From a virus (taxonomy: Duplodnaviria; Heunggongvirae; Uroviricota; Caudoviricetes), in the IMG/VR virus record IMGVR_UViG_2711768054_000001: 28,743 bases of DNA, one strand, 5' to 3'. Below are positions 420-16,390 of the stretch, piece after piece (position 1 is the first letter of the stretch; every line of letters starts with the position of its first letter). A program made the position numbers and the translations under genes. The notes beneath the pieces are model-generated. The model searched no databases. It was not told the DNA's origin and saw only the letters and a program-made list of their open reading frames with translations.

Positions 420-2138
420 ATGATTTTTAGGGATAGCTTGAGAGTATTTCCTTATGGTCGAGTAGATAATGATTTCTTCCAGATAGAAGAAAGACGTTCA
501 TGGAATGCAGGGCGATATTATTGGTCTAATAGAAGGATTTTTGGTTATATTGGAATTACTCAATCCAGTAATAAAGAGCTGAAAGATAAGTCGGGGAGAG
601 AGGGATTCATAAGAAACCAGGCTGCAAGAGAACTGAAAACTATTATATCTAATTTGTTAACTGAACTTGCTGATAGATTTTTTGGTTCACGTTCTGATGA
701 CCGTAAAGAGCTTTTAGAACAAGTTAAGCGTGAAAAAGAGTTAAGAAAATCTGCTCAACAACAAGCTCGAAAATCAACACAAAAAAGTTTTTCAGAAGCT
801 TTGAAGAATCAGACACCAGTTCTTGATGCTTCCTTGGAGGCTGTTAAAAGGCTGAAAACTAAGCTTGATAAAACTGATGGTTCGTTAGATTTAAACTATC
901 TTAAAATTATAGACAGTGATCTTACAAACTTAGATGCGTTGCGCAGTGAAATTAAAACGCCTATCAAACCTCCAAAACTTGGAATGTATGAAGAGAAATA
1001 TAGAGACTACAGAGATAAATTTAATGAGTTCTCTGCGTATATTCTACAAATGAAGTTAGCAATTAATAAACTTGATTCTGAATTAAATAAACTTGAGCCT
1101 TCATTGTCAGCGAAAAATCACCTTGAAAAAAATCAAGGTATTATTAATTCTAAACTAACTAAGTTTAATAACACGATAGAGGAGAAGATACATTCTCTTT
1201 TAAAAAAATGGGCCGATGAAATAAAGGTTGATCGAAGTGATTATTATGCTAAAACTATATCAGTTGTTGATTCAATAGATAATGATTCACAAATTGAAAA
1301 TGTGTTTAATTTGCTCGATAGTTTATATGTTGAGTCAGTTGATACCCTAACTTTCAAATATCAATCAATAATAAAAGGTCTCGATAGATTATTTGAAGGT
1401 ATAAACTTAGATTCAGCATTCTCATTATCTGAAGAAGAACGCTCATATTTTGAAGAAAAAGCTAAAAGTTTAAACGCGCTTGCACAGTTAGGTATTAGTG
1501 TTGAGATAATATCTCATGAACTTGAAGAAATGGATTCTATGGTAACCAGAGGACTAAACTCTCTTCCTACTTCTGTAAAAGAACACCCTGGTTTTTCATT
1601 GGCGTTAAATGCTCACAGATCGCTTACTCAACAAATACGTTTCTTATCACCTTTGAAAATATCAGGTTATCAATCCAGGCAGAGAATAACTGGAAAAAAT
1701 ATCATGGATTATGTCCTGAAGTTCTTTGGGGAGCGTTTCGAACGGCAACGAATAACTATTGAATTTAGTGAAGAGTTTAAGCAAATCGCAATAACAGATA
1801 TACCATCAAGGATCTATCCTGTTTTTACTAATATTATCAACAATGCAATGTATTGGGTCAGTCTGTCAAATAATAGGCTCATAAAGATTGGTTTTGTGAA
1901 TTCTTTGGTTATCATAGCAAATTCTGGTCCGGCAATTGATACCGATGATATCCCGCGACTATTTGAACTATTTTATAGCAAAAGAGCAAATGGACATGGG
2001 GTAGGTCTGTATCTATGTCGAGAAAACCTTGCTGTTGCACATCATAAAATATGGTATTCAGAACCTGATGAAGGCGATAACTATTTAATAAAAGATGGCG
2101 CTAATTTTGTGATCCAGTTCAATGGAGTGGAGTTCTAA
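420..2138 (+). CDS. Histidine-kinase-like ATPase (DHp + HATPase_c), apparently 5-prime truncated by the IS3 insertion
   Basis: ORF of 572 aa. Putative H-box ISVEIISHELEEMDSM, N-box NIINNAMYW and G-box GHGVGLYLCRENLA near the C-terminus; the N-terminal 330 aa are K/E-rich and look coiled-coil. The reading frame stays open upstream from 420 back to 294, right at the IS3 end, and there is no convincing RBS before the ATG at 420. GC content is visibly low. Confidence 0.55.
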   Translation: MIFRDSLRVFPYGRVDNDFFQIEERRSWNAGRYYWSNRRIFGYIGITQSSNKELKDKSGREGFIRNQAARELKTIISNLLTELADRFFGSRSDDRKELLEQVKREKELRKSAQQQARKSTQKSFSEALKNQTPVLDASLEAVKRLKTKLDKTDGSLDLNYLKIIDSDLTNLDALRSEIKTPIKPPKLGMYEEKYRDYRDKFNEFSAYILQMKLAINKLDSELNKLEPSLSAKNHLEKNQGIINSKLTKFNNTIEEKIHSLLKKWADEIKVDRSDYYAKTISVVDSIDNDSQIENVFNLLDSLYVESVDTLTFKYQSIIKGLDRLFEGINLDSAFSLSEEERSYFEEKAKSLNALAQLGISVEIISHELEEMDSMVTRGLNSLPTSVKEHPGFSLALNAHRSLTQQIRFLSPLKISGYQSRQRITGKNIMDYVLKFFGERFERQRITIEFSEEFKQIAITDIPSRIYPVFTNIINNAMYWVSLSNNRLIKIGFVNSLVIIANSGPAIDTDDIPRLFELFYSKRANGHGVGLYLCRENLAVAHHKIWYSEPDEGDNYLIKDGANFVIQFNGVEF

Positions 2139-2139
2139 T

Positions 2140-3888
2140 ATGACAGTGGCAAATTATAATTCTCTTGTCCAGAAAACTTTCTGCGAAAATGCAATTCGTT
2201 CCGTTGTCATGATTGATGACGATTTTCTGACGTATTCTGAATCAATCAGGGCGTTGAATAACGAAGTTGATTTAGACTACAACAAAATTGACTCATCTAA
2301 ACGAGCCGCTACTCTTGAGAGCTTTTTTCAATCTAAAAATATGATTTGTGATGTTGACAATGGTTCTGTTAATTTCGATGTGGATCGGATTAGAAAATCA
2401 GATCTTATTATTGTAGATTATCATCTTGATAATAATGCACCTGATAAAACACTTAAACTATTACAAGATTTGAAAGACTCCGATCATTTAAATATGGTTG
2501 TAATATATACTAGAGAGAATTTAGAAACGGTTTGGATGCAGATATCATCGACTCTCAAAGGTGCTCTGGATATCAACAGCTTGATCATTGACTACGATAA
2601 TGAAGATGTCCAAAGTTATTGGGAAGACGTTGTATTACCGAACTTAAATGATAATGGTAATAAAGCTCTCACAAGAGATGAAACAATAGCCTATATTAAA
2701 GACAGTAAGCCTTGTAGAAGAATTAAAAGATTAATACATGATGATGCTGTGTTGGAGGATCAAAAGGATAAAAACTTCATTGCAAAAATGATTGCAGAAT
2801 ATGCTGTGTCTAGAAATGCAATTATTTCTAGCAACACATCTGGCAATGTCATTCGGGGTGATGAAAGCGGAGTAAAATGGATTCAATGTGGTAATATCTT
2901 TGTCTCCCTATTTCATAAGGTTCAAGATGATCATGAAAACGATGGAGATAGGATTTGGCAAACTCTCAATGATTCTCTCATTGAATGGAAACCATCTTAT
3001 TATCAGTTAATAAAATCTGAAATTCAGAATGCAATCGAAGCTGAGGCTTTATCTTTTGTAAATCATTTGGCTAACGATCATTACGGTCAAGCTGCGTGGT
3101 TAAATGAGATATTAAAATCAGACTCGCCTGATATTAGATGTAGAAATATTGACTTTGTATTTGGTAATTTATCAGAAGAGCTTTATCAAAGACTTAAAAA
3201 TAATAATACGCTGGATGAATTTATCAAAAGTGTTTTTGATAGCTATTCAAATGAATACGCTAACAGCGGAGTTGCTGCATTGCTCCAATATTGCTCTTCA
3301 AAAATGGATCTGCCATCAAATAATGATACTTATCACGAAATGTATCATGCTTTAAATATGAATTTGTCTTCAAAGAATTTTGAAGATGGTCATATTTCTA
3401 CTGGCACTATTTTCTTTGATACAGAGTCGAACAAATGGTATTTATGTGTATCTGCGGCATGTGATTTGGTTCCTACTCAGGGTAACGACCCTCACCATGT
3501 AAGATTAAGTCCGCACAGGCTCATTAAAGTTCTGGAGCTTTTTAACGCCAGTCAGAGTAAAGCATTGCCATTTGCTGAACATTCGAAATATATATATGTA
3601 ATGCATAAAAATCAAAGAAAATATCTCTCTATTTTCGAAGGGGATAAAACGCTTCCTGTTGTTGATTATATGGTGGTGTTGAATCATGGAACAACAGTTG
3701 ATGGCGAAGAAAAAAATATTATTTCTGCCGTGTTTTTAAGTAATATGGATGGCAACGTGCAAAATGTTCCTGTCCGACTCAAACTTAAATCTCAACTGAG
3801 AACTGGTTATGCAGAAAGATATCAGGCTATAGCGTCTCAGTATAGCTCAAGGATTGGTGTGGATTATGTATCAATGATGCTACCATAA
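2140..3888 (+). CDS. Receiver (REC) domain protein with a ~450-aa C-terminal domain of unknown function
   Basis: N-terminus carries the response-regulator receiver signature: VVMIDDDF (acidic pair), LIIVDYHLD (putative phospho-acceptor Asp), MVVIYTRE (conserved Thr). RBS GGAGTGGAG at 2124-2132; ATG at 2140 lies one base after the upstream stop, suggesting translational coupling. AT-rich. No DNA-binding output domain recognisable. Confidence 0.6.
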   Translation: MTVANYNSLVQKTFCENAIRSVVMIDDDFLTYSESIRALNNEVDLDYNKIDSSKRAATLESFFQSKNMICDVDNGSVNFDVDRIRKSDLIIVDYHLDNNAPDKTLKLLQDLKDSDHLNMVVIYTRENLETVWMQISSTLKGALDINSLIIDYDNEDVQSYWEDVVLPNLNDNGNKALTRDETIAYIKDSKPCRRIKRLIHDDAVLEDQKDKNFIAKMIAEYAVSRNAIISSNTSGNVIRGDESGVKWIQCGNIFVSLFHKVQDDHENDGDRIWQTLNDSLIEWKPSYYQLIKSEIQNAIEAEALSFVNHLANDHYGQAAWLNEILKSDSPDIRCRNIDFVFGNLSEELYQRLKNNNTLDEFIKSVFDSYSNEYANSGVAALLQYCSSKMDLPSNNDTYHEMYHALNMNLSSKNFEDGHISTGTIFFDTESNKWYLCVSAACDLVPTQGNDPHHVRLSPHRLIKVLELFNASQSKALPFAEHSKYIYVMHKNQRKYLSIFEGDKTLPVVDYMVVLNHGTTVDGEEKNIISAVFLSNMDGNVQNVPVRLKLKSQLRTGYAERYQAIASQYSSRIGVDYVSMMLP

Positions 3889-3900
3889 TTATTATATTTT

Positions 3901-3929
3901 AGGCGTGGTGATTTTTTTTCGCCATGCCT
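3901..3929. terminator. Possible bidirectional terminator hairpin between convergent genes
   Basis: Imperfect inverted repeat aggcgtgg (3901-3908) / ccatgcct (3922-3929) flanking a T-run, located between the 3-prime ends of the receiver gene (+) and the membrane-protein gene (-). Confidence 0.35.
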
Positions 3930-3959
3930 ATTTTATATTTATCATCACAATGATGTTGT

Positions 3960-4376
3960 TTATTTTTGTTTAAGTCTTCTAAGCTTCATGCATTCTAATG
4001 AGAATAATAATAGAGTTGTGCTGTATATAAAGCCAGAGTTAGTTAATAACTTTAAATTTAATGCTTCAGGATTTTCACTGAGAAAGTGAAAGGCATAAAC
4101 TAAGTATACAGCTAAAGTAGCCGTTCCAATTGTTGGTCCAATATCGCCTTGATCATGAGGTTCAAGGTTTACATTGAACTTGAAGATTAGCCATTCAAAT
4201 CCCCAAGTAAAAAAAACAACTAATATCATGGCTGCGAATAATTTCGCGATGTTATCTGCTGATGGATTCATCAGAACAGATTGTTTCTGAAAAAATTCAC
4301 AAAGTGAGAGTCCGAAAAAAATAAAAAAAAGTGGTCTGGAACTAAATTTTTCAAAAACTTTGAATAGGGTTTCCAT
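3960..4376 (-). CDS. Small multi-pass membrane protein (138 aa), unknown function
   Basis: ATG at 4376 preceded on the minus strand by RBS AAGGTAAAG; translation shows about four hydrophobic helices (LFFIFFGLSL, AAMILVVFFTWGF, TATLAVYLVYAF, FIYSTTLLLF); AT-rich. Confidence 0.5.
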   Translation of the reverse strand: METLFKVFEKFSSRPLFFIFFGLSLCEFFQKQSVLMNPSADNIAKLFAAMILVVFFTWGFEWLIFKFNVNLEPHDQGDIGPTIGTATLAVYLVYAFHFLSENPEALNLKLLTNSGFIYSTTLLLFSLECMKLRRLKQK

Positions 4377-4414
4377 TTTCTTTACCTTCAGGATTATATT
4401 AGCTATTCTGATAC

Positions 4415-5644
4415 TTAGGCTACCAGAGCATTTGATCTTTGAGCTTGAACGTAATCACTCCACCATTGCATCAAACTCTGTCGCTCTATCAGATATTCTG
4501 CACGATTGTATGCTGCGATAATTTCATCTTTTTTCGAGTGGGCAAGCGCTGCCTCAAGAACTTCAGCTCTGAATTTACCAGACTCCTCTGCCGCTGTTCG
4601 TGCAATAGAACGCATACCGTGAGCTACAAGCTCGCCTCCGAACCCCATTCGGATGATAGCTGCGTTGGCTGTTTGTTCATGCATATGATTAAGAGGCGCT
4701 TTTATGCTGGGGAAAACCCATTCTCTATGCCCACTTATTGATTTCATTAATTCAAGGATGCGCAAAGCTTCTTTACTCAAAGGAACTTTGTGAAGCTTTT
4801 TCATTTTCATGAAATCAGCAGGAATGTTCCAAATGCTGTTGGTTGTATCAATATCAGACCACCTTGCGCGAACGGCTTCACCCGGACGAACCCATGTCAA
4901 CAATTGCCATTCAATTAGCATACGTGTTTCCAACCGGATTGACGCATTCGTCAAAGATTCCATAAACCTTGGCAATTCGCTTGGGGGAAGGGCAGGCATA
5001 TTTTGCTTTTTTGGTTTACTGAATCTTTGACCAAGGTTGTCAGCCGGGTTGAACTCAATAAGTTCTTCAGTAGCTGCCCACCGGAAGATTTCATTCAGAC
5101 GTGAAATGATACGGCGTAGAGTTTCCAATACGCCTCGTTGCTCAATAGGATCAAGGTGTTGTTTTAAGAGCTTAGGTCGGATCTCATTGATAGGGACATT
5201 ACCCAGACCGGGAAAGACATTTCTCTCTAAGCTGCGCCAGATGTCTGCTGCATGGTCTTGTGAGATACCTGATGTCTTTACCTTCTCATCTAACCATTTC
5301 CGCGCTACGGCTTGGAGAGTGTGCTCAGTAGCACTCTTTAATGCCTTCGCCTTATCGTTGTTATGGATTTGGGGATCAACACCATTTGCCAGAAAGGAGA
5401 GATATTCATCACGTAAGGCTCTGGCTCTTGCAAGGGTAAGGTGAGGATATGTCCCAAGGCTCATTTTGGTTCTTTTCTTGCTCACTGGTACTGCATACCT
5501 GAAATACCAATTTTTCTTGCCTCCTTTCGCCAAAGGAGCGATTCGTAGAATCAGACCATCACCGTCAAACAAGTTGATTTCTTTATCGGCTGGCTTGGTG
5601 CTTTTGATTTCAGTGTCAGTGAGCTTCTTAGCGATTTTTGCCAT
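4415..5644 (-). CDS. int: P4/CP4-57-family tyrosine integrase
   Basis: Translation MAKIAKKLTDTEIKSTKPADKEINLFDGDGLILRIAPLAKGGKKNWYFRY... has the typical P4-type integrase N-terminus, and the C-terminal half contains the R...H..R...Y catalytic region (HGMRSIARTAAEE, EAALAHS, Y in AAYNRAEY). I take the ATG at 5644 as the start; the ORF-track start at 5686 would add a GPK/GPT-repeat extension encoded by GGACCC DNA repeats. Confidence 0.85.
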   Translation of the reverse strand: MAKIAKKLTDTEIKSTKPADKEINLFDGDGLILRIAPLAKGGKKNWYFRYAVPVSKKRTKMSLGTYPHLTLARARALRDEYLSFLANGVDPQIHNNDKAKALKSATEHTLQAVARKWLDEKVKTSGISQDHAADIWRSLERNVFPGLGNVPINEIRPKLLKQHLDPIEQRGVLETLRRIISRLNEIFRWAATEELIEFNPADNLGQRFSKPKKQNMPALPPSELPRFMESLTNASIRLETRMLIEWQLLTWVRPGEAVRARWSDIDTTNSIWNIPADFMKMKKLHKVPLSKEALRILELMKSISGHREWVFPSIKAPLNHMHEQTANAAIIRMGFGGELVAHGMRSIARTAAEESGKFRAEVLEAALAHSKKDEIIAAYNRAEYLIERQSLMQWWSDYVQAQRSNALVA

Positions 5645-5809
5645 TTTGGGACCCTCGGTTTTTGGACCCTTCTTAGTGGGTCCCATTCAGGGTGCCATAA
5701 CTCGTAGTTCTCAGCAATTCTCACTGGACGACAATAGACGTAAAAAAGCCCGCAGAGCTTGTGCTGTGTGGGCTTAGTAGACTTCATTGAACTTCAAACA
5801 ACTAAAAAG

Positions 5810-5854
5810 TGGTGGAGCTGGCGGGAGTTGAACCCGCGTCCGAAATTCCTACAT
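5810..5854 (-). other. ssrA: 3-prime-terminal 45 nt of ssrA (tmRNA), an att-site copy, not a complete gene
   Basis: Reverse complement of 5810-5854 reads ATGTAGGAATTTCGGACGCGGGTTCAACTCCCGCCAGCTCCACCA, identical to the 3-prime end (T-arm plus acceptor CCA) of E. coli tmRNA as I recall it. Similarity stops abruptly at 5855; the upstream sequence is AT-rich and unrelated to ssrA. Confidence 0.8.
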
Positions 5855-5970
5855 ACCATTTTGACTATAATAAAAACATATATTTATGTTTTAAAACAGT
5901 ACGTTAGTGTTATTTTGTTTTTGTCGGTTTTACACATTTTTAATGCTCTGCCGCCAAGTTGTCGCCATTG

Positions 5971-6954
5971 CTAATTCCTATCAGCAGGTAGAATTGCTGG
6001 GTAGAGCTTAGAGCAATCATTGCCATAGTCAGGGATAAAGTCCCATAGCCCTTTTGGCGTTTGGAAGACCTCAGGGCTTAAGCCAATCAGCATATAAACA
6101 TGAACTAACAGCTCGCGCAATCCAGTGACCATTTGCTTTATTTGTTTTTCATCAGAGAAAGAAGTGGTGAAGGGTTTTTCTTCAATGGAGTCAAAAAGAA
6201 TAAACTCATGTTTTTCATATCGATAGTCGATCCCTAATTCTCTGCAAAGTTGGATAATATTGATTTCGAGCATTTGAAGGGAAATCACTTGGATATCATA
6301 AGAAGTCTCTTTGTTGTAACAGCTTTTAATAGCTTTGTTGATATTCTTATAATAATCTTGAACTCTACCCATAAATAATGAACTTATTTCTTTGCTATAG
6401 CCTTCTTCAATAGAGGATTTTGTAAAAATATTCATGTAAAGAATATAAGGGTGAGAAATGGAAAGTTCTATATATTTTTTTCCATCATCGTGTTCGGTAA
6501 ACTCTCTACTAACGATAAATGAAGGGACGGTTTTAAAAATATCGGCATAACTCTTCTGGTGGGCATAAAATGAATCAGATTTATTTTTTGCTTTTACCAG
6601 CTCTATTTGATGCTCTGTCCTTGAAAGCTGCGTCTCTGTTTGAATGGTCCTGTGAATATTCTTAACTATAGCTCCAAGAGGTACTGAACTGGCTAGCAGC
6701 ATTAGAGGGAATTTACTGATTTCGTAAAAGCGAGTATAGCCGTGGGCACTTAACACCGGGACCTTGCCCCACCATGCGAAAATCCCAAAATAAAAGAATG
6801 ATAATACTGGTATTCCGATTGATAACCAGAATAATTTCTGTTTTATAAGGTTTTGTTCATTTAATAAATACCACTTGTATTTATATGTTAAATACAATAT
6901 GTATATTAACATTACAACATAGAACATAATGCCAATTGATGAATAAAGGGTCAT
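5971..6954 (-). CDS. Membrane protein of unknown function (327 aa); AT-rich cargo gene downstream of the P2-type integrase
   Basis: N-terminal hydrophobic helices (IGIMFYVVMLIYILYL, LFWLSIGIPVLSFFYFGIFAWWG, LMLLASSVPLGAIV) followed by a ~220-aa soluble domain. The start ATG (6954-6952, minus strand) overlaps the int stop (6953-6951) as ATGA. GC content is clearly lower than the flanking phage genes. Confidence 0.6.
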   Translation of the reverse strand: MTLYSSIGIMFYVVMLIYILYLTYKYKWYLLNEQNLIKQKLFWLSIGIPVLSFFYFGIFAWWGKVPVLSAHGYTRFYEISKFPLMLLASSVPLGAIVKNIHRTIQTETQLSRTEHQIELVKAKNKSDSFYAHQKSYADIFKTVPSFIVSREFTEHDDGKKYIELSISHPYILYMNIFTKSSIEEGYSKEISSLFMGRVQDYYKNINKAIKSCYNKETSYDIQVISLQMLEINIIQLCRELGIDYRYEKHEFILFDSIEEKPFTTSFSDEKQIKQMVTGLRELLVHVYMLIGLSPEVFQTPKGLWDFIPDYGNDCSKLYPAILPADRN

Positions 6955-7979
6955 GCTTTTTTCCAGTCTAATTTGTAAAGTGGATTTTTTGTTACAGCAT
7001 CTTCCAAGTGATCAGGGGCAAAGTGAGCGTAAACCATCGTCATTTTTATATCAGCATGGCCCAGAATATCGCGCAGTACCAGTATATTTCCGCCGTTCAT
7101 CATAAAATGGCTGGCGAATGTATGGCGCAGTACGTGGGTGCACTGGCCCTCTGGCAGTTCGATACCGGCTCGCTTTACTGCACGCTCAAAGGATTTTCTG
7201 CATGGGGTAAATAATCTCCCCCTGTTTTTAGGTAGTTCGTCATACAGTTCTTGAGATATTGGAACGGTTCGGTTTTTTTTACCTTTGGTCTTGGTATAAG
7301 TAATGCGATATTTTGATAACTGATGCCCTTGCAGGTTTTCTGCTTCACTCCATCGGGCACCAGTTGCTAGGCATATTTTTGCAATCATCAACAGACTGGG
7401 ACTCTGAGAATCAGCACAGGCATCCAGTAGGCGTTTAATTTCTTCCGGGGTCAGGAATGCTAGTTCACCCTCAGCGATTTTAAATGTTGGCAGCCCGACG
7501 AGAGGATTTGGTGCTGACCAGTGGCCTAGTTTTTTCAATGTGCCGAAAACCGATGATAGGTTACGTTGCTCAAGATTCACCGTGCGTGGTTTTACTGGCG
7601 ACATTAGTGTGCCGTCTTCGTTACGAAGGTCACCTTTTAACCGTGCTTCGCGGTATTTCGTAAAGTCTCCGGCTGTCAGTTCTGAGGCGATGGGGTCGCC
7701 TAGACCATTACAGATAATTCTAAGTTTCGCCATGAGGCGCTTGGGGTCTGCGAGTGTCTGACCATACAGGGAATACCAAAGCTCAATTAACTCTGATAGG
7801 CGTCGCCGATCATCCTTTTCACCCAACCACGGTTTTTTATTCACTTCTTCCATTGTGAAGCTTTCAAACGCAATGGCTTCGCCTTTCGTGGCAAATTGCT
7901 TACGCACGCGCTTGCCATTGCGTCCATTGGGATAGCACTCACACAACCATTTTCCGTTCGGCTGTTTTCTGATGGTCAT
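6951..7979 (-). CDS. int: P2-type tyrosine integrase
   Basis: 342 aa, MTIRKQPNGKWLCECYPNGRNGKRVRKQFATKGEAIAFE...; C-terminus has ARWSE...HVLRHTFASHFMMNGGNILVLRDILGHADIKMTMVYAH (R-H-R-Y motifs). Size and sequence resemble P2/186 Int. Confidence 0.9.
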   Translation of the reverse strand: MTIRKQPNGKWLCECYPNGRNGKRVRKQFATKGEAIAFESFTMEEVNKKPWLGEKDDRRRLSELIELWYSLYGQTLADPKRLMAKLRIICNGLGDPIASELTAGDFTKYREARLKGDLRNEDGTLMSPVKPRTVNLEQRNLSSVFGTLKKLGHWSAPNPLVGLPTFKIAEGELAFLTPEEIKRLLDACADSQSPSLLMIAKICLATGARWSEAENLQGHQLSKYRITYTKTKGKKNRTVPISQELYDELPKNRGRLFTPCRKSFERAVKRAGIELPEGQCTHVLRHTFASHFMMNGGNILVLRDILGHADIKMTMVYAHFAPDHLEDAVTKNPLYKLDWKKA

Positions 7980-7980
7980 A

Positions 7981-8613
7981 TCAAAGGCTCTTAATGATTT
8001 TCAGTGCGCGGCCTACTACCTCAATGTCATCCAGGCCGCACTCAAACGATGAATCATCCTGATGCACTACTAATTTGTTTCCCGGGAGTCGAGTCAATTT
8101 AACAATGCTTTTTATCCCGTCGATATCGACTAACCACATACCATTTACTAGTGGTGTTTGGTTGCGATCTATTAAATAAGAATCACCAGAAGTAGTTACC
8201 AGCAGTAGGTTGCTTGAGTTTGAGGGGAGTATGCTGCTATCAATGATTGCTTTTCCAGCATCGATCAATAAACCACCGTTGAGAGTCGCCTTGTCAATTT
8301 CAGGAGATACTAGTTCAGAAAGAGGTATAACCTTGCTGGAGTTCACGGAATTGATATTTTTTTTGGGTTCAATGTTTGAACCTGGCTCCCCCTGTCCGGT
8401 GGTTAGCCACAGTAAAGAAACTCCTGTTTCCAAGGCGCACTGAATCACCCACTCTGCAGGAAAACTATCTCTTAAGTATCTGTTTGCCATGGTACTTTTT
8501 GATGCGCCTAAGTGATCGCAAAGTTGCTGTCTGGACTTGAAATCATAGGCTGCCATTAGTCTATGGATAGCCTCTCTTCCCCCTGTATTCTCTCCAGCCT
8601 TTACCTGTATCAT
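7981..8613 (-). CDS. CI-like immunity repressor (HTH N-terminal domain), 186-type
   Basis: 210 aa; divergent from the early operon and adjacent to int; N-terminal helix-turn-helix region (SKSTMANRYLRDSFPAEWVIQCALETGVSLLWLTTGQG); no obvious LexA-like Ser-Lys autocleavage motif. Confidence 0.7.
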   Translation of the reverse strand: MIQVKAGENTGGREAIHRLMAAYDFKSRQQLCDHLGASKSTMANRYLRDSFPAEWVIQCALETGVSLLWLTTGQGEPGSNIEPKKNINSVNSSKVIPLSELVSPEIDKATLNGGLLIDAGKAIIDSSILPSNSSNLLLVTTSGDSYLIDRNQTPLVNGMWLVDIDGIKSIVKLTRLPGNKLVVHQDDSSFECGLDDIEVVGRALKIIKSL

Positions 8614-8625
8614 TTTTTAATCCTG

Positions 8626-8677
8626 TTGACGTATCAAATATTGGATCGTAGTATCTCGATGTATCAAATGTTGAATC
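8626..8677 (+). promoter_or_regulatory. Early rightward promoter with direct-repeat operator candidates
   Basis: -35 TTGACG (8626-8631), 17-nt spacer, -10 TAGTAT (8649-8654). Two 17-bp direct repeats gtatcaaatattggatc (8631-8647) and gtatcaaatgttgaatc (8661-8677), 30 bp apart, overlap the promoter; a third GTATCA half-copy sits at 8606-8611. Confidence 0.45.
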
Positions 8678-8732
8678 AAGTAAAACGAGATAAAACGACG
8701 TAAACCAAACCTTAATCGGGAGATACTGCACT

Positions 8733-8975
8733 ATGAGCACTGATATTTCAATTCGTGTACCAAAAGAGATGGCTACGCCTGCAGAGTTCGCGGAATGGGA
8801 AGGTATCTCCCGCGGCTCCGTGTATCAAAAAATTCACCATGGTCAGCTTGCTAAATACATGGTCAAGAAAGAAAAAAACAAAGGCCGCGTAAGCCTGCGT
8901 TATTTAATGTACAAAACCGATCAGGTCCGTGAATCCCTCGGTCATTCCAACTTCCGCGTCATTGTTGGTAAGTAA
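8733..8975 (+). CDS. Cox/Apl-like small DNA-binding regulator/excisionase
   Basis: 80 aa; first gene of the rightward early operon, opposite the repressor; RBS GGGAGA; position matches cox (P2) / apl (186). Confidence 0.55.
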   Translation: MSTDISIRVPKEMATPAEFAEWEGISRGSVYQKIHHGQLAKYMVKKEKNKGRVSLRYLMYKTDQVRESLGHSNFRVIVGK

Positions 8976-14980: not shown

Positions 14981-16390
14981 ATGTCTTTTCTTGATATAAA
15001 AAAAATGAGTAAAGAGAGGTTTAATGCTTTTGTTGATTGGACCAGAATGCCAAATACTGAACTTTTAGGCTATGAGTTTGAGTGGTACTGTAGTCCGAGA
15101 GAGTTCCTGCTAGGGGCACTATTATTGGATCAAATCGATGAAGATTATAGCGGTATTGTTTTAGCAAGAGACTTAAGTGGGAGATATAGATGTATTGACC
15201 TATTTACTAGTGTTTCAGAAATGAATTCTGCACGAGCAAAACTAAAGAAATTAATGCGGAAGCATACTAAATTAAACGTAAAAGTATTTCCACAAGGTGA
15301 TGAAACTTATAAAGCAATGGATTTATTCACACCTATAGTTACACCAGATAAACTTCATCATCATTTTTCATTATTTGGTAAATACGCGAACTGGTCGCCT
15401 GCAACAGGGATAATCAAGGAAATGATGAATCATTTTGAGGATGTCGACGGGAATTTTATAGAGCAGTTTCAGACAACAGGTTTTGATGCCCGGCTATGGG
15501 AGTTATATCTTTTCGCATATTTACGAGAGGAACACTTTTGGCTAGATAGGCAGTTTAATGCTCCTGATTATGTGGCACGTAAGTATGGTAATACTATTTG
15601 CATTGAAGCTGTAACGGTTAATCCAACAGGGAATGATATTAATCAATCATCTGAAATGCTATCTGAACCTAAAAGTAAGGAAGAATTGCTAGAGAAAATA
15701 GAGAATTATATGCCGATTAAATTTGGAAGTTCTCTCTATTCTAAACTGAAAAAGAAAACTCGATACTGGGATCTAGAACATGTTAAGGGGAATCCTTTAA
15801 TTTTCGCAATTGCTGATTTTCATGAACCAAACTCTATGATTTGGTCCCATAGTGCACTTTGGCAGTATCTTTATGGTATTCGCTATGAGCATGTTAAATC
15901 TGAAGATGGATGTTACAGTTTAGCAACTAAGAAAATTATATCGCATCAATTTGAGAAAAAGGAAATTCCTTCAGGCTTTTTCTTCTTGGATGAGTCTGAA
16001 AATATTTCGGCCGTCCTTAGTTCTAATAGTGGTACTATATCGAAGTTTAATCGGATGGGAAAACTGGCTGGTTTTGGAAGAAGTGACCTTAGATTATTTA
16101 GGAGTGGTTACTGCCATGATCATGACCCAGAGGCATTATATCCAGCAGCATTTAGTTTTGAAGTGAAAGAAGGCGATATTACAGAAACATGGGCAGAAGG
16201 TTTAAATATGTATCATAATCCTAATGCTAAATATCCTGTAGATCCTGATTTATTTCCTTCAATAGCACATCATTTTCTTGAAAATGGAGAGGTTAAAAGT
16301 ATAGTGCCTGACTTTCATCCGTATACATCTATTACCATAAATGTCTTAACTCAAAATAATAAAAAACAAAAAATCAGAGTAGATGAGTAA
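14981..16390 (+). CDS. Hypothetical protein (469 aa), AT-rich cargo gene between the candidate cos site and the portal gene
   Basis: Long ORF with RBS GAGG upstream; GC content much lower than the flanking phage genes; no motif I can assign (no Walker A, no clear nuclease signature); no TM segments apparent. Confidence 0.7.
   Translation: MSFLDIKKMSKERFNAFVDWTRMPNTELLGYEFEWYCSPREFLLGALLLDQIDEDYSGIVLARDLSGRYRCIDLFTSVSEMNSARAKLKKLMRKHTKLNVKVFPQGDETYKAMDLFTPIVTPDKLHHHFSLFGKYANWSPATGIIKEMMNHFEDVDGNFIEQFQTTGFDARLWELYLFAYLREEHFWLDRQFNAPDYVARKYGNTICIEAVTVNPTGNDINQSSEMLSEPKSKEELLEKIENYMPIKFGSSLYSKLKKKTRYWDLEHVKGNPLIFAIADFHEPNSMIWSHSALWQYLYGIRYEHVKSEDGCYSLATKKIISHQFEKKEIPSGFFFLDESENISAVLSSNSGTISKFNRMGKLAGFGRSDLRLFRSGYCHDHDPEALYPAAFSFEVKEGDITETWAEGLNMYHNPNAKYPVDPDLFPSIAHHFLENGEVKSIVPDFHPYTSITINVLTQNNKKQKIRVDE

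What the first reader, a model, noticed from the sequence alone, without database searches (positions are those of the whole stretch)
5855..6954. AT-rich membrane-protein gene translationally coupled to the P2-type integrase at the prophage/att junction
A 327-aa protein with N-terminal TM helices and a ~220-aa soluble domain is encoded directly downstream of int with an ATGA stop/start overlap. It fills the space between int and the att repeat, where P2-like phages normally have no gene. Its base composition differs sharply from the prophage. This looks like a moron co-expressed with int in the lysogen, a typical arrangement for defence, superinfection-exclusion or abortive-infection cargo.
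Basis: partly seen in the sequence, partly recalled or inferred. Interest (0 to 1): 0.65.

Follow-up and report, generated by a model that had tools for sequence, protein, structure and literature searches.

The report
Candidate defence gene beside prophage integrase
An E. coli P2-like (Fels-2/186-type) prophage carries, in the swappable slot between its integrase gene and its attachment site, an AT-rich gene for a membrane protein of an unstudied family; sister prophages hold known anti-phage genes at that spot, so it is a well-supported but untested candidate phage-defence gene in an already described hotspot.

Summary
A 327-aa ORF (5971-6954, minus strand) starts in an ATGA overlap with the stop codon of a Fels-2-type integrase gene. 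It ends 116 bp before a 45-nt copy of the ssrA 3' end (5810-5854), which is the att core. Its GC content is 35%, against 47% for int and 52% for the prophage.

The protein has two strong hydrophobic helices, a third marginal one, and about 229 further residues. Sister E. coli prophages with the same int and cI carry other things at exactly this slot: dCTP deaminase, GapS1, an HNH protein, a 401-aa protein, diverged paralogs of this gene, or nothing. The isolated phage Cartapus carries its own cargo gene there.

The family is large (927 representative clusters) and has no Pfam, NCBIfam or PADLOC match; its only match is the function-unknown phrog_17460. No fold match was found. The N-terminal membrane module is conserved and the C-terminal domains are shuffled. 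Members also lie in the gpA-portal defence hotspot of Providencia prophages.

The most likely reading is a lysogen-expressed, single-gene anti-phage protein. The function is inferred by association only. The int-att hotspot has already been published (2024, 2026), so this is a new candidate in a known kind of locus.

The parts
5810..5854 (-). att core: a 45-nt copy of the 3' end of ssrA (tmRNA). It marks the boundary between the P2-like prophage on the right and a second, P4-type-integrase island on the left.
   Evidence: An exact 45-nt identity run with the intact ssrA of strain 33-6. Rfam matches the 3' part of tmRNA, E 2e-17, truncated at the 5' end. Homology to prophages in strains with other left-hand neighbours starts at 5810.
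5855..5970 (.). Non-coding phage DNA between the att core and the cargo cassette, presumed to be an attP arm. It forms the left homology anchor of the cassette.
   Evidence: It is conserved at 84-96% in sister prophages that carry unrelated cargo, and the homology ends at 5967-5970.
5971..6954 (-). Cargo gene: a 327-aa membrane protein (WP_052521740.1) that belongs to phrog_17460, a family of unknown function.
   Evidence: GC 35%. AlphaFold2 model with mean pLDDT 84.8.
6535..6954 (-). Codons 1-140: the conserved N-terminal membrane module. It has helices at about residues 7-25, 42-62 and 83-98, followed by a juxtamembrane helix that carries the near-invariant motif N-I-H-R-T-I-Q-T-E-x-Q and K123/N124/D127/H132/K134.
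   Evidence: Alignments A1 and A2. Majority-residue frequency is 0.72-0.84 over residues 41-100.
5974..6534 (-). Codons 141-327: the variable C-terminal alpha/beta-plus-helical-bundle domain. It is exchangeable between family members.
6951..6954 (-). ATGA stop/start overlap between int and the cargo gene (translational coupling).
   Evidence: Read directly from the sequence. Tight junctions recur in paralogs.
6951..7979 (-). Tyrosine integrase of the Fels-2 / RE2010 / Cartapus type, which integrates at ssrA.
   Evidence: Pfam Int_N and Phage_integrase. 92-94% amino-acid identity to the integrases of Fels-2, RE2010 and Cartapus.
7981..8613 (-). 186-type CI repressor, the first gene of the leftward (lysogenic) cI-int-cargo gene string.
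   Evidence: Pfam Phage_CI_repr and Phage_CI_C.
8609..8637 (-). Promoter-like site upstream of cI, a candidate for the lysogenic promoter that would drive cI-int-cargo.
   Evidence: A consensus match only, 9 of 12 positions. The total count of such sites in the region is not above the shuffled expectation.
5746..5760 (-). Terminator-like hairpin followed by a T run, just beyond the att core. It lies where the terminator of the displaced ssrA 3' end would be expected (an inference from position, not compared with ssrA) and is the first terminator-like site downstream of the cargo gene.
   Evidence: It is the only terminator-like site found on either strand in 5700-8800.

Best explanation
The region is a one-gene accessory cassette (a 'moron') in the int-attP slot of an ssrA-integrating, Fels-2/186-type P2-like prophage of E. 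coli.

**Shown.** The cassette lies inside phage DNA. It is bounded by a conserved attP arm and by the last codons of int. It is swapped between otherwise syntenic prophages for known defence genes, unrelated genes, paralogs or nothing. Its start overlaps the int stop codon.

**Inferred.** It is transcribed with cI and int from the lysogenic promoter, as pL drives cI-int in phage 186, and is translated at a low level by coupling to int. The protein would therefore be present in the lysogen.

**Most likely function (by association).** It protects the lysogen against other phages as a single-gene system.

**Proposed mechanism (weakest step).** The protein sits in the inner membrane, N-terminus out and C-terminus in. 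The rapidly exchanged C-terminal domain faces the cytoplasm and recognises a phage-derived cue. The conserved three-helix membrane module, with its polar juxtamembrane helix (H101/R102/T103/Q105/T106/Q109...), is the common output, probably oligomerising to permeabilise or depolarise the membrane in an abortive-infection-like way.

**Rough probabilities.** Accessory cassette in a recombination hotspot, about 0.95. Co-expressed with int in the lysogen, about 0.7. Anti-phage role of any kind, about 0.6-0.65. This particular sensor/effector mechanism, about 0.3.
For: **Cassette and hotspot.** The homology breakpoints lie at 5970/5971 and about 6962-6982. The alternative contents of the slot are dCTP deaminase, GapS1, an HNH protein, a 401-aa protein, paralogs, or nothing. 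All cargo is 30-35% GC. The phage records Cartapus and RE2010 carry cargo in this slot and MLG42 has none.

[quoted passage not shown] The iLund4u preprint reports a third P2 hotspot between a tail protein and CI.

**Family found in other accessory slots of P2-like elements.**
- The gpA-portal hotspot (the old/tin locus) in two Providencia prophages.
- Directly after an int remnant in Proteus.
- After Fels-2-type int in Citrobacter, '[Erwinia] mediterraneensis' and Kosakonia.
- At the end of a P2-like tail cluster in Pseudomonas chlororaphis.

**Coupling.** The ATGA overlap is matched by junctions ranging from an 8-nt overlap to a 5-nt gap in paralogs. No terminator-like site lies between cI and the ORF.

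**Modular architecture.** The N module is 62-71% identical where the C domain is 11-20% identical. A second group has the N module at about 51% and the C domain at about 38%, which means the two modules have discordant histories.

**Topology.** Loop 1 is net positive (K+R 4.1 against D+E 1.4). Variants with an extra N-terminal helix begin with a Lys-rich tail. Both features place loop 1 and, if helix 3 spans the membrane, the C-terminal domain in the cytoplasm.

**Same prophage.** It also carries a validated defence gene, PD-T7-1, in hotspot 1.
Against: - No experiment or transcript data were available, so function rests on guilt by location.
- There is no similarity to any known defence family in PADLOC 2.0, Pfam or NCBIfam.
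- The third hydrophobic segment is marginal: 16 uncharged residues with two prolines, broken in the AlphaFold2 model at residues 88-90. The C domain could therefore be periplasmic, which would favour an injection-blocking mechanism instead.
- Hotspots also carry non-defence cargo.
- One homolog (Pectobacterium) sits alone between rplY and an acyltransferase gene, outside any recognisable prophage.
- The promoter assignment is a bare consensus match.
Confidence: 0.5

Rival explanations
1. Superinfection exclusion at the envelope. The protein has only two true membrane spans plus a re-entrant or interfacial segment, so the variable C-terminal domain faces the periplasm. There it would interfere with DNA delivery (tape-measure or ejection proteins, or an inner-membrane receptor) of incoming phages, as P22 SieA, T4 Imm and HK97 gp15 do. 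No cell death would be involved.
For: The protein is membrane-bound and is expected to be expressed in the lysogen. The third hydrophobic segment is marginal, proline-containing and kinked in the model. A variable surface domain would fit co-evolution with the injection proteins of competitors. [quoted passage not shown]
Against: The positive-inside pattern and the four-helix variants favour a cytoplasmic C domain if segment 3 spans the membrane. There is no detectable relation to SieA: hhalign probability is 0.2%. The most conserved polar residues lie just after segment 3 on a long helix, which looks more like a shared output or oligomerisation element than a target-binding surface.
Confidence: 0.2
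2. A lysogenic-conversion or host-fitness factor unrelated to phage competition, such as envelope modification, stress tolerance, colonisation, or an anti-satellite or anti-plasmid role. It would simply ride in a recombination-prone slot.
For: Prophage slots next to int/att classically carry conversion genes; the gtrABC genes next to int in P22-like phages are an example from established knowledge. There is no homology or fold link to any defence family. One homolog is chromosomal and sits outside a prophage in Pectobacterium.
Against: The same slot in sister prophages holds bona fide anti-phage genes, dCTP deaminase and GapS1. Family members also occupy the classical old/tin defence hotspot. 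The pattern of a conserved module joined to shuffled domains is typical of conflict systems.
Confidence: 0.12
3. A phage-own function tied to integration, excision or lysogeny control, for instance an accessory factor for Int. This would explain the translational coupling.
For: The gene is tightly coupled to int in many genera.
Against: The gene is absent or replaced by unrelated genes in prophages and phages with integrases 80-93% identical at the nucleotide level and 92-94% at the protein level, including the isolated phages Cartapus and MLG42. In Providencia it lies far from int. It is a membrane protein with foreign base composition.
Confidence: 0.03

Closest known systems
Cargo of the int-att hotspot of P2-like prophages (PMC13586616, NAR 2026), also reported as the 'third hotspot between a tail protein and CI' (iLund4u preprint, 10.1101/2024.10.15.618418)
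   Same: Same position, between int and the att site and inside the mobilised phage DNA. Same behaviour, with different genes at one locus in syntenic phages. Known defence systems (dCTP deaminase, GapS1) occur at the same slot in sister prophages.
   Different: Those studies catalogued recognisable defence systems. This protein family is not recognised by PADLOC, Pfam or NCBIfam, and in the papers I could search it was neither named nor tested.
P2 lysogenic-conversion / defence genes old, tin and fun(Z), and newer cargo of the gpA-portal hotspot such as PD-T7-1 (Rousset 2022, PMC9122126; Vassallo 2022, PMC9519451)
   Same: AT-rich single-gene or few-gene cassettes expressed from P2-like prophages. 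Distant members of this family sit in that very hotspot in Providencia. The window's own gpA-portal slot holds PD-T7-1.
   Different: There is no sequence relation. Here the gene is read in the same direction as cI-int and overlaps int, rather than being a free-standing unit.
PD-T7-4 (Vassallo et al. 2022)
   Same: [quoted passage not shown]
   Different: No PADLOC PD-T7-4 model hit for ORF327 or for the 114 family members scanned.
P22 SieA superinfection-exclusion protein (PMC10883804)
   Same: A prophage-expressed inner-membrane protein with about three predicted transmembrane helices that occurs as several highly diverged types.
   Different: SieA is 162-164 aa with no large soluble domain, and it lies between genes 16 and 9 of P22-like phages. 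Profile comparison shows no relation, with probability 0.2%.
Membrane-spanning effectors of abortive-infection systems (CBASS 2TM effectors, PycTM, KwaA, RexB)
   Same: The concept is shared: a small helical membrane module that kills or arrests the cell on a signal. One or two of the 114 family members give weak PADLOC hits to 2TM, PycTM or KwaA models.
   Different: Those hits are sporadic (best E 4e-5 in a single member) and most likely reflect hydrophobic composition. The other systems need a separate sensor or cyclase gene, whereas here sensor and effector would be in one polypeptide.

Membership tests
PHROG phrog_17460 (phage protein family, function unknown) | Significant match to the family HMM over most of its length | tested here: met
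   E 2.3e-51, residues 6-284 against profile positions 4-285 of 343.
Cargo of the P2-like int-att defence hotspot | Lies between int and the att core, inside DNA that is part of the phage | tested here: met
   att core at 5810-5854. A conserved arm at 5855-5970 lies on the att side of the gene. Phage records Cartapus and RE2010 include cargo at this slot.
Cargo of the P2-like int-att defence hotspot | Content varies between otherwise syntenic prophages and alternates with known defence systems | tested here: met
   Seven or more different contents in the sampled E. coli prophages, including dCTP deaminase (PADLOC 2e-146) and GapS1.
Cargo of the P2-like int-att defence hotspot | Confers resistance to phage infection | not testable with these tools
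   Needs plaque and liquid-infection assays.
Known anti-phage defence families (PADLOC-DB 2.0, including PD-T7-4, 2TM effectors, KwaA, PycTM) | Match to a family HMM | tested here: not met
   Zero hits for ORF327 at E<=0.1. Among 114 family members there were only sporadic weak hits, in 1-2 members each, with best E 4e-5.
Pfam / NCBIfam curated families | Match above the curated threshold | tested here: not met
   No hit for ORF327. No consistent hit among the 114 members.
P22 SieA family | Sequence or profile similarity to SieA, including the FxRYPxEAxxFNK motif | tested here: not met
   hhalign of family profile A2 against P22 SieA gave probability 0.2% over 12 aligned columns.
P22 SieA family | Inner-membrane protein with three transmembrane helices that blocks DNA injection | tested here: inconclusive
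   Two strong hydrophobic helices and one marginal one are predicted. Localisation and injection block cannot be tested here.
Solved-structure relatives (PDB) | Sequence-profile or fold match | tested here: not met

The most novel reading that the evidence does not exclude
The family would be a previously unrecognised class of single-polypeptide, membrane-embedded immune proteins of P2-like phages. A conserved three-helix membrane module with the H-R-T-x-Q-T juxtamembrane motif, which has no fold relative among solved structures, would act as a new kind of membrane effector. It would be gated by interchangeable cytoplasmic sensor domains that are swapped by recombination, using the conserved module and the attP arm as homology anchors.
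Probability: 0.25. Interest if true: 0.6.

Novelty: new member of a known kind. Interest (0 to 1): 0.4.

Why it matters
If it is active, this would add a widespread protein family to the catalogue of prophage-borne anti-phage systems. The family has 927 representative clusters, lies mainly in Enterobacterales with an outlier in Pseudomonas, and has no annotation and no fold assignment. Its clean two-module architecture lends itself to domain-swap experiments on how specificity and killing are separated. It would also give a concrete, testable example for the still thinly documented int-att hotspot of P2-like phages, and for defence genes that borrow the lysogenic cI-int transcript and int's ribosomes for low-level expression. 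For genome annotation, it shows that 'hypothetical protein' genes directly downstream of Fels-2-type integrases form one coherent family.

Tried and rejected
- **tRNA/tmRNA scan.** ARAGORN found nothing because only a 45-nt fragment is present. Direct comparison with ssrA and an Rfam search settled the identity of the att core.
- **Family libraries.** Pfam, NCBIfam and PADLOC gave no family for ORF327 or for 114 relatives. The sporadic 2TM, PycTM and KwaA hits were rejected as composition-driven.
- **Solved structures.** A PDB sequence-profile search found nothing.
- **HEPN idea.** It was raised by the LinB, KNTase and AbiV hits and rejected because the RxxxxH pair is not conserved.
- **SieA homology.** Rejected.
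- **Systematic survey of slot content.** A chimeric arm-plus-early-region query was tried across all 221 int-positive genomes. It failed because megablast did not anchor the 116-bp arm and the early genes are shared with other P2-like prophages. The cargo list is therefore a sample of about 20 loci, not a census.
- **The search for related loci.** With the closer alignment it returned only five loci.
- **Repeats in the arm.** No convincing arm-type repeat was found.
- **Promoters.** The scan count was not above the shuffled background.
- **Literature.** A search for the protein accession found nothing.

Full report
**1. What is there**

The window is E. coli DNA. The region 5700-8700 is 99.5-99.9% identical to seven complete RefSeq E. 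coli chromosomes.

On the minus strand, three genes follow one another head to tail:
- a 186-type CI repressor (7981..8613; Pfam Phage_CI_repr and Phage_CI_C);
- a tyrosine integrase (6951..7979; Int_N and Phage_integrase);
- a 327-aa ORF (5971..6954).

Plus-strand bases 6951-6954 read TCAT. On the coding strand, the start codon of the ORF and the stop codon of int therefore overlap as ATGA. RefSeq annotates the same ORF as WP_052521740.1, 'hypothetical protein'.

GC content is 35.0% for the ORF, 46.6% for int and 52.3% for the rest of the prophage.

The protein has strongly hydrophobic helices at about residues 7-25 and 42-62. A third, marginal segment lies at 83-98: it is uncharged, has two conserved prolines, and is kinked in the model. 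About 229 further residues follow.

**2. The junction**

Window 5810-5854 is a 45-nt exact copy of the 3' end of ssrA. Rfam independently aligns the 3' part of tmRNA here. ARAGORN reports nothing because only a fragment is present.

In strain 33-6, the intact ssrA lies at the other end of the prophage, next to ogr and a 160-aa gene. So the prophage is integrated in the 3' end of ssrA, and the copy at 5810-5854 is the displaced att core.

To its left lies a second element with a P4-type integrase (4415..5686), inserted in tandem at the same site.

The integrase is 92-94% identical to those of Fels-2, RE2010, SEN8 and Cartapus.

The 116 bp at 5855-5970 are non-coding.

**3. It is a cassette in a hotspot**

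Comparison with sister prophages that share int and cI at 80-93% nucleotide identity shows where homology runs and where it stops. It runs from the left flank through the att core and the 116-bp arm up to 5967-5970. It resumes at about 6962-6982, within the last codons of int.

Between these points, the sampled E. coli prophages carry the following:

| Slot content |
|---|
| This gene (7 of 5426 complete genomes) |
| Paralogs of 353, 352, 343 and 339 aa, 34-47% identical to it |
| An oppositely oriented anti-phage dCTP deaminase (PADLOC dCTPase, E 2e-146) |
| GapS1 |
| An HNH-domain protein |
| A 401-aa protein |
| Nothing |

All the cargo is 30-35% GC. In total, 221 genomes carry this integrase type.

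The slot belongs to the phage itself. The isolated phage Cartapus and phage RE2010 have the 401-aa gene between int and the att side. Yersinia phage MLG42 has int followed directly by the att region.

The literature already names this place:
[quoted passage not shown] **4. The protein family**

A word-indexed search found 64 clusters. All are 'hypothetical' and all named ones come from Enterobacterales. A full profile search found 927 representative clusters at E<=1e-3, of which 171 have E<=1e-30.

None of the following libraries recognises the family:
- Pfam;
- NCBIfam;
- PADLOC;
- PDB sequences.

Only PHROGs does, as phrog_17460 of unknown function.

Conservation is concentrated in residues 41-140. 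Across 114 diverse members, L36, H101 and Q105 are invariant. R102, T103, T106, Q109, K123, N124, D127, H132 and K134 are nearly invariant. These residues lie on the long helix (90-141) that leaves the membrane.

The two halves have discordant histories. One large group is 62-71% identical to the query in residues 26-140 but only 11-20% identical in residues 141-327. Another group is about 51% and about 38% identical over the same two ranges. This means the C-terminal domains have been exchanged on a conserved N-terminal module. At the DNA level, homology with the 353-aa paralog's prophage continues from int into the first ~107 codons of the gene and then stops.

**5. Genomic contexts of relatives**

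- Members in Escherichia, Citrobacter, Klebsiella and Enterobacter sit directly after a Fels-2-type int. So do members found in '[Erwinia] mediterraneensis', Kosakonia and an unnamed metagenomic contig. Their junctions range from an 8-nt overlap to a 5-nt gap.
- In Proteus mirabilis the gene follows a remnant of the int 3' end.
- In two Providencia rettgeri prophages it lies between gpA and the portal/ogr genes. This is the classical old/tin defence hotspot.
- In Pseudomonas chlororaphis it lies at the end of a P2-like tail cluster, beside umuDC-like cargo.
- In Pectobacterium it is a lone chromosomal gene.

The family is therefore cargo of several accessory slots in P2-like elements.

**6. 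Structure**

The AlphaFold2 model built with the family alignment is confident: mean pLDDT 84.8 for the full protein, and pLDDT 81.6 with pTM 0.82 for the C domain alone.

No search gave an informative match:
- Foldseek against BFVD gave nothing.
- AFDB could not be searched.

The best C-domain hits are helical bundles of the KNTase/LinB C-terminal and HEPN type. However, the single RxxxxH pair in ORF327 is not conserved in its closest homologs, so a HEPN nuclease is rejected. P22 SieA shows no relation.

**7. How it most likely works**

*Shown:* the cassette nature, the position, the coupling geometry, the modular family and the company it keeps.

*Inferred from phage 186 biology (established knowledge: pL transcribes cI and int in the lysogen):* the gene is read through from cI-int.
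- There is no room for a promoter of its own at the junction, although one inside the 3' part of int cannot be excluded.
- No terminator-like site lies between cI and the gene.
- The first terminator-like site downstream is the hairpin just beyond the att core, at 5746-5760.
- Coupling to the weakly translated int would keep a potentially toxic membrane protein at a low level.

*Inferred by association:* an anti-phage role.

*Proposed mechanism:* the positive-inside rule applies here, since loop 1 has K+R 4.1 against D+E 1.4. Variants with an extra N-terminal helix begin with a Lys-rich tail. Together these place loop 1 in the cytoplasm. If segment 3 spans the membrane, the C domain is cytoplasmic too. 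The shuffled C domain would then be the sensor, and the conserved membrane module with its polar helix would be the common effector.

If segment 3 is only re-entrant, the C domain is periplasmic, and an injection-blocking (Sie) mechanism becomes the better reading. I rate these possibilities as follows:
- defence of any kind, about 0.6-0.65;
- the sensor/effector (abortive-type) model, about 0.3;
- the Sie model, about 0.2;
- a fitness factor unrelated to phages, about 0.12;
- a role in integration or lysogeny, about 0.03.

**8. Novelty and verdict**

The locus type is already published, and thousands of such unannotated hotspot genes exist, so a specialist would not be surprised.

The new elements are these:
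- the hypothetical proteins downstream of Fels-2-type integrases form one large, uncharacterised, modular membrane-protein family;
- the family has no fold relative among solved structures;
- it recurs in two recognised defence hotspots.

It is a good candidate for experimental testing, but no more than that. I set interest at 0.4 and classify it as a new member of a known kind.

Noticed in passing
window 14981-16390 (+): A second AT-rich cargo gene (469 aa, GC 35%) lies in the classical gpA-portal hotspot of the same prophage. It is a full-length match to the validated defence gene PD-T7-1 (PADLOC E 1.3e-196), so the prophage carries one known defence system in addition to the candidate studied here.
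   Followed up: partly
window 420-5686: A separate island with a P4-type integrase (4415..5686, minus strand) is inserted in tandem at the same ssrA site. It carries an overlapping gene pair at 34% GC: a 572-aa protein with HATPase_c and HEF_HK domains and a 588-aa Response_reg_2 protein. It also carries a 138-aa membrane ORF (3960..4376, minus strand). The pair looks like one of the predicted NTP-dependent conflict systems (from memory of Kaur et al. 2020, not checked). PADLOC gives no convincing hit. The same island recurs next to several sister prophages.
   Followed up: partly
window 5742-5885 (-): There is a sub-threshold Rfam match to the Salmonella IsrM sRNA (56 bits against a gathering score of 376, E 7e-15). 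It overlaps the ssrA 3' fragment and its downstream terminator-like hairpin. It probably reflects shared ssrA-derived sequence rather than an IsrM gene.
   Followed up: no
L009:1738-2220 (strain 33-6); L035:5020-5502 (phage Cartapus gp32); L037:3814-4296 (phage MLG42): On the other side of attP, between ogr and the att site, these phages carry a conserved 160-aa gene (483 bp). It is annotated 'hypothetical' in most records and 'putative exonuclease' in Cartapus. Both sides of attP are therefore coding in this lineage.
   Followed up: no
L041:12240-12782: A Providencia rettgeri P2-like prophage has a 180-aa ORF with no Pfam hit inserted between cI and int. This is the cI-int slot that Rousset et al. 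2022 reported as a hotspot in K139-like Vibrio phages. The same prophage has the ORF327-family gene and a further 395-aa ORF of unknown function in the gpA-portal hotspot.
   Followed up: no
L009 compared with the window (strain 33-6, NZ_CP050031.1, about 1127181-1150343): In strain 33-6 the two ssrA-derived att copies are only about 23 kb apart. The window's prophage is still at tail gene I 22 kb from its att core, so the 33-6 copy must lack roughly 10 kb (a deletion or different cargo). It nevertheless retains the int-ORF327 end at 99.5% identity.
   Followed up: no
L027:1755-2960 (E. coli LF82), identical in position and length to L035:3527-4732 (Cartapus gp33) and L036:3527-4732 (RE2010 gp01): Another uncharacterised cargo of the same slot is a 401-aa protein with no Pfam or PADLOC hit. 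It is annotated in Cartapus as 'putative RES protein, NAD+ binding domain'. It would be a further untested defence candidate.
   Followed up: partly
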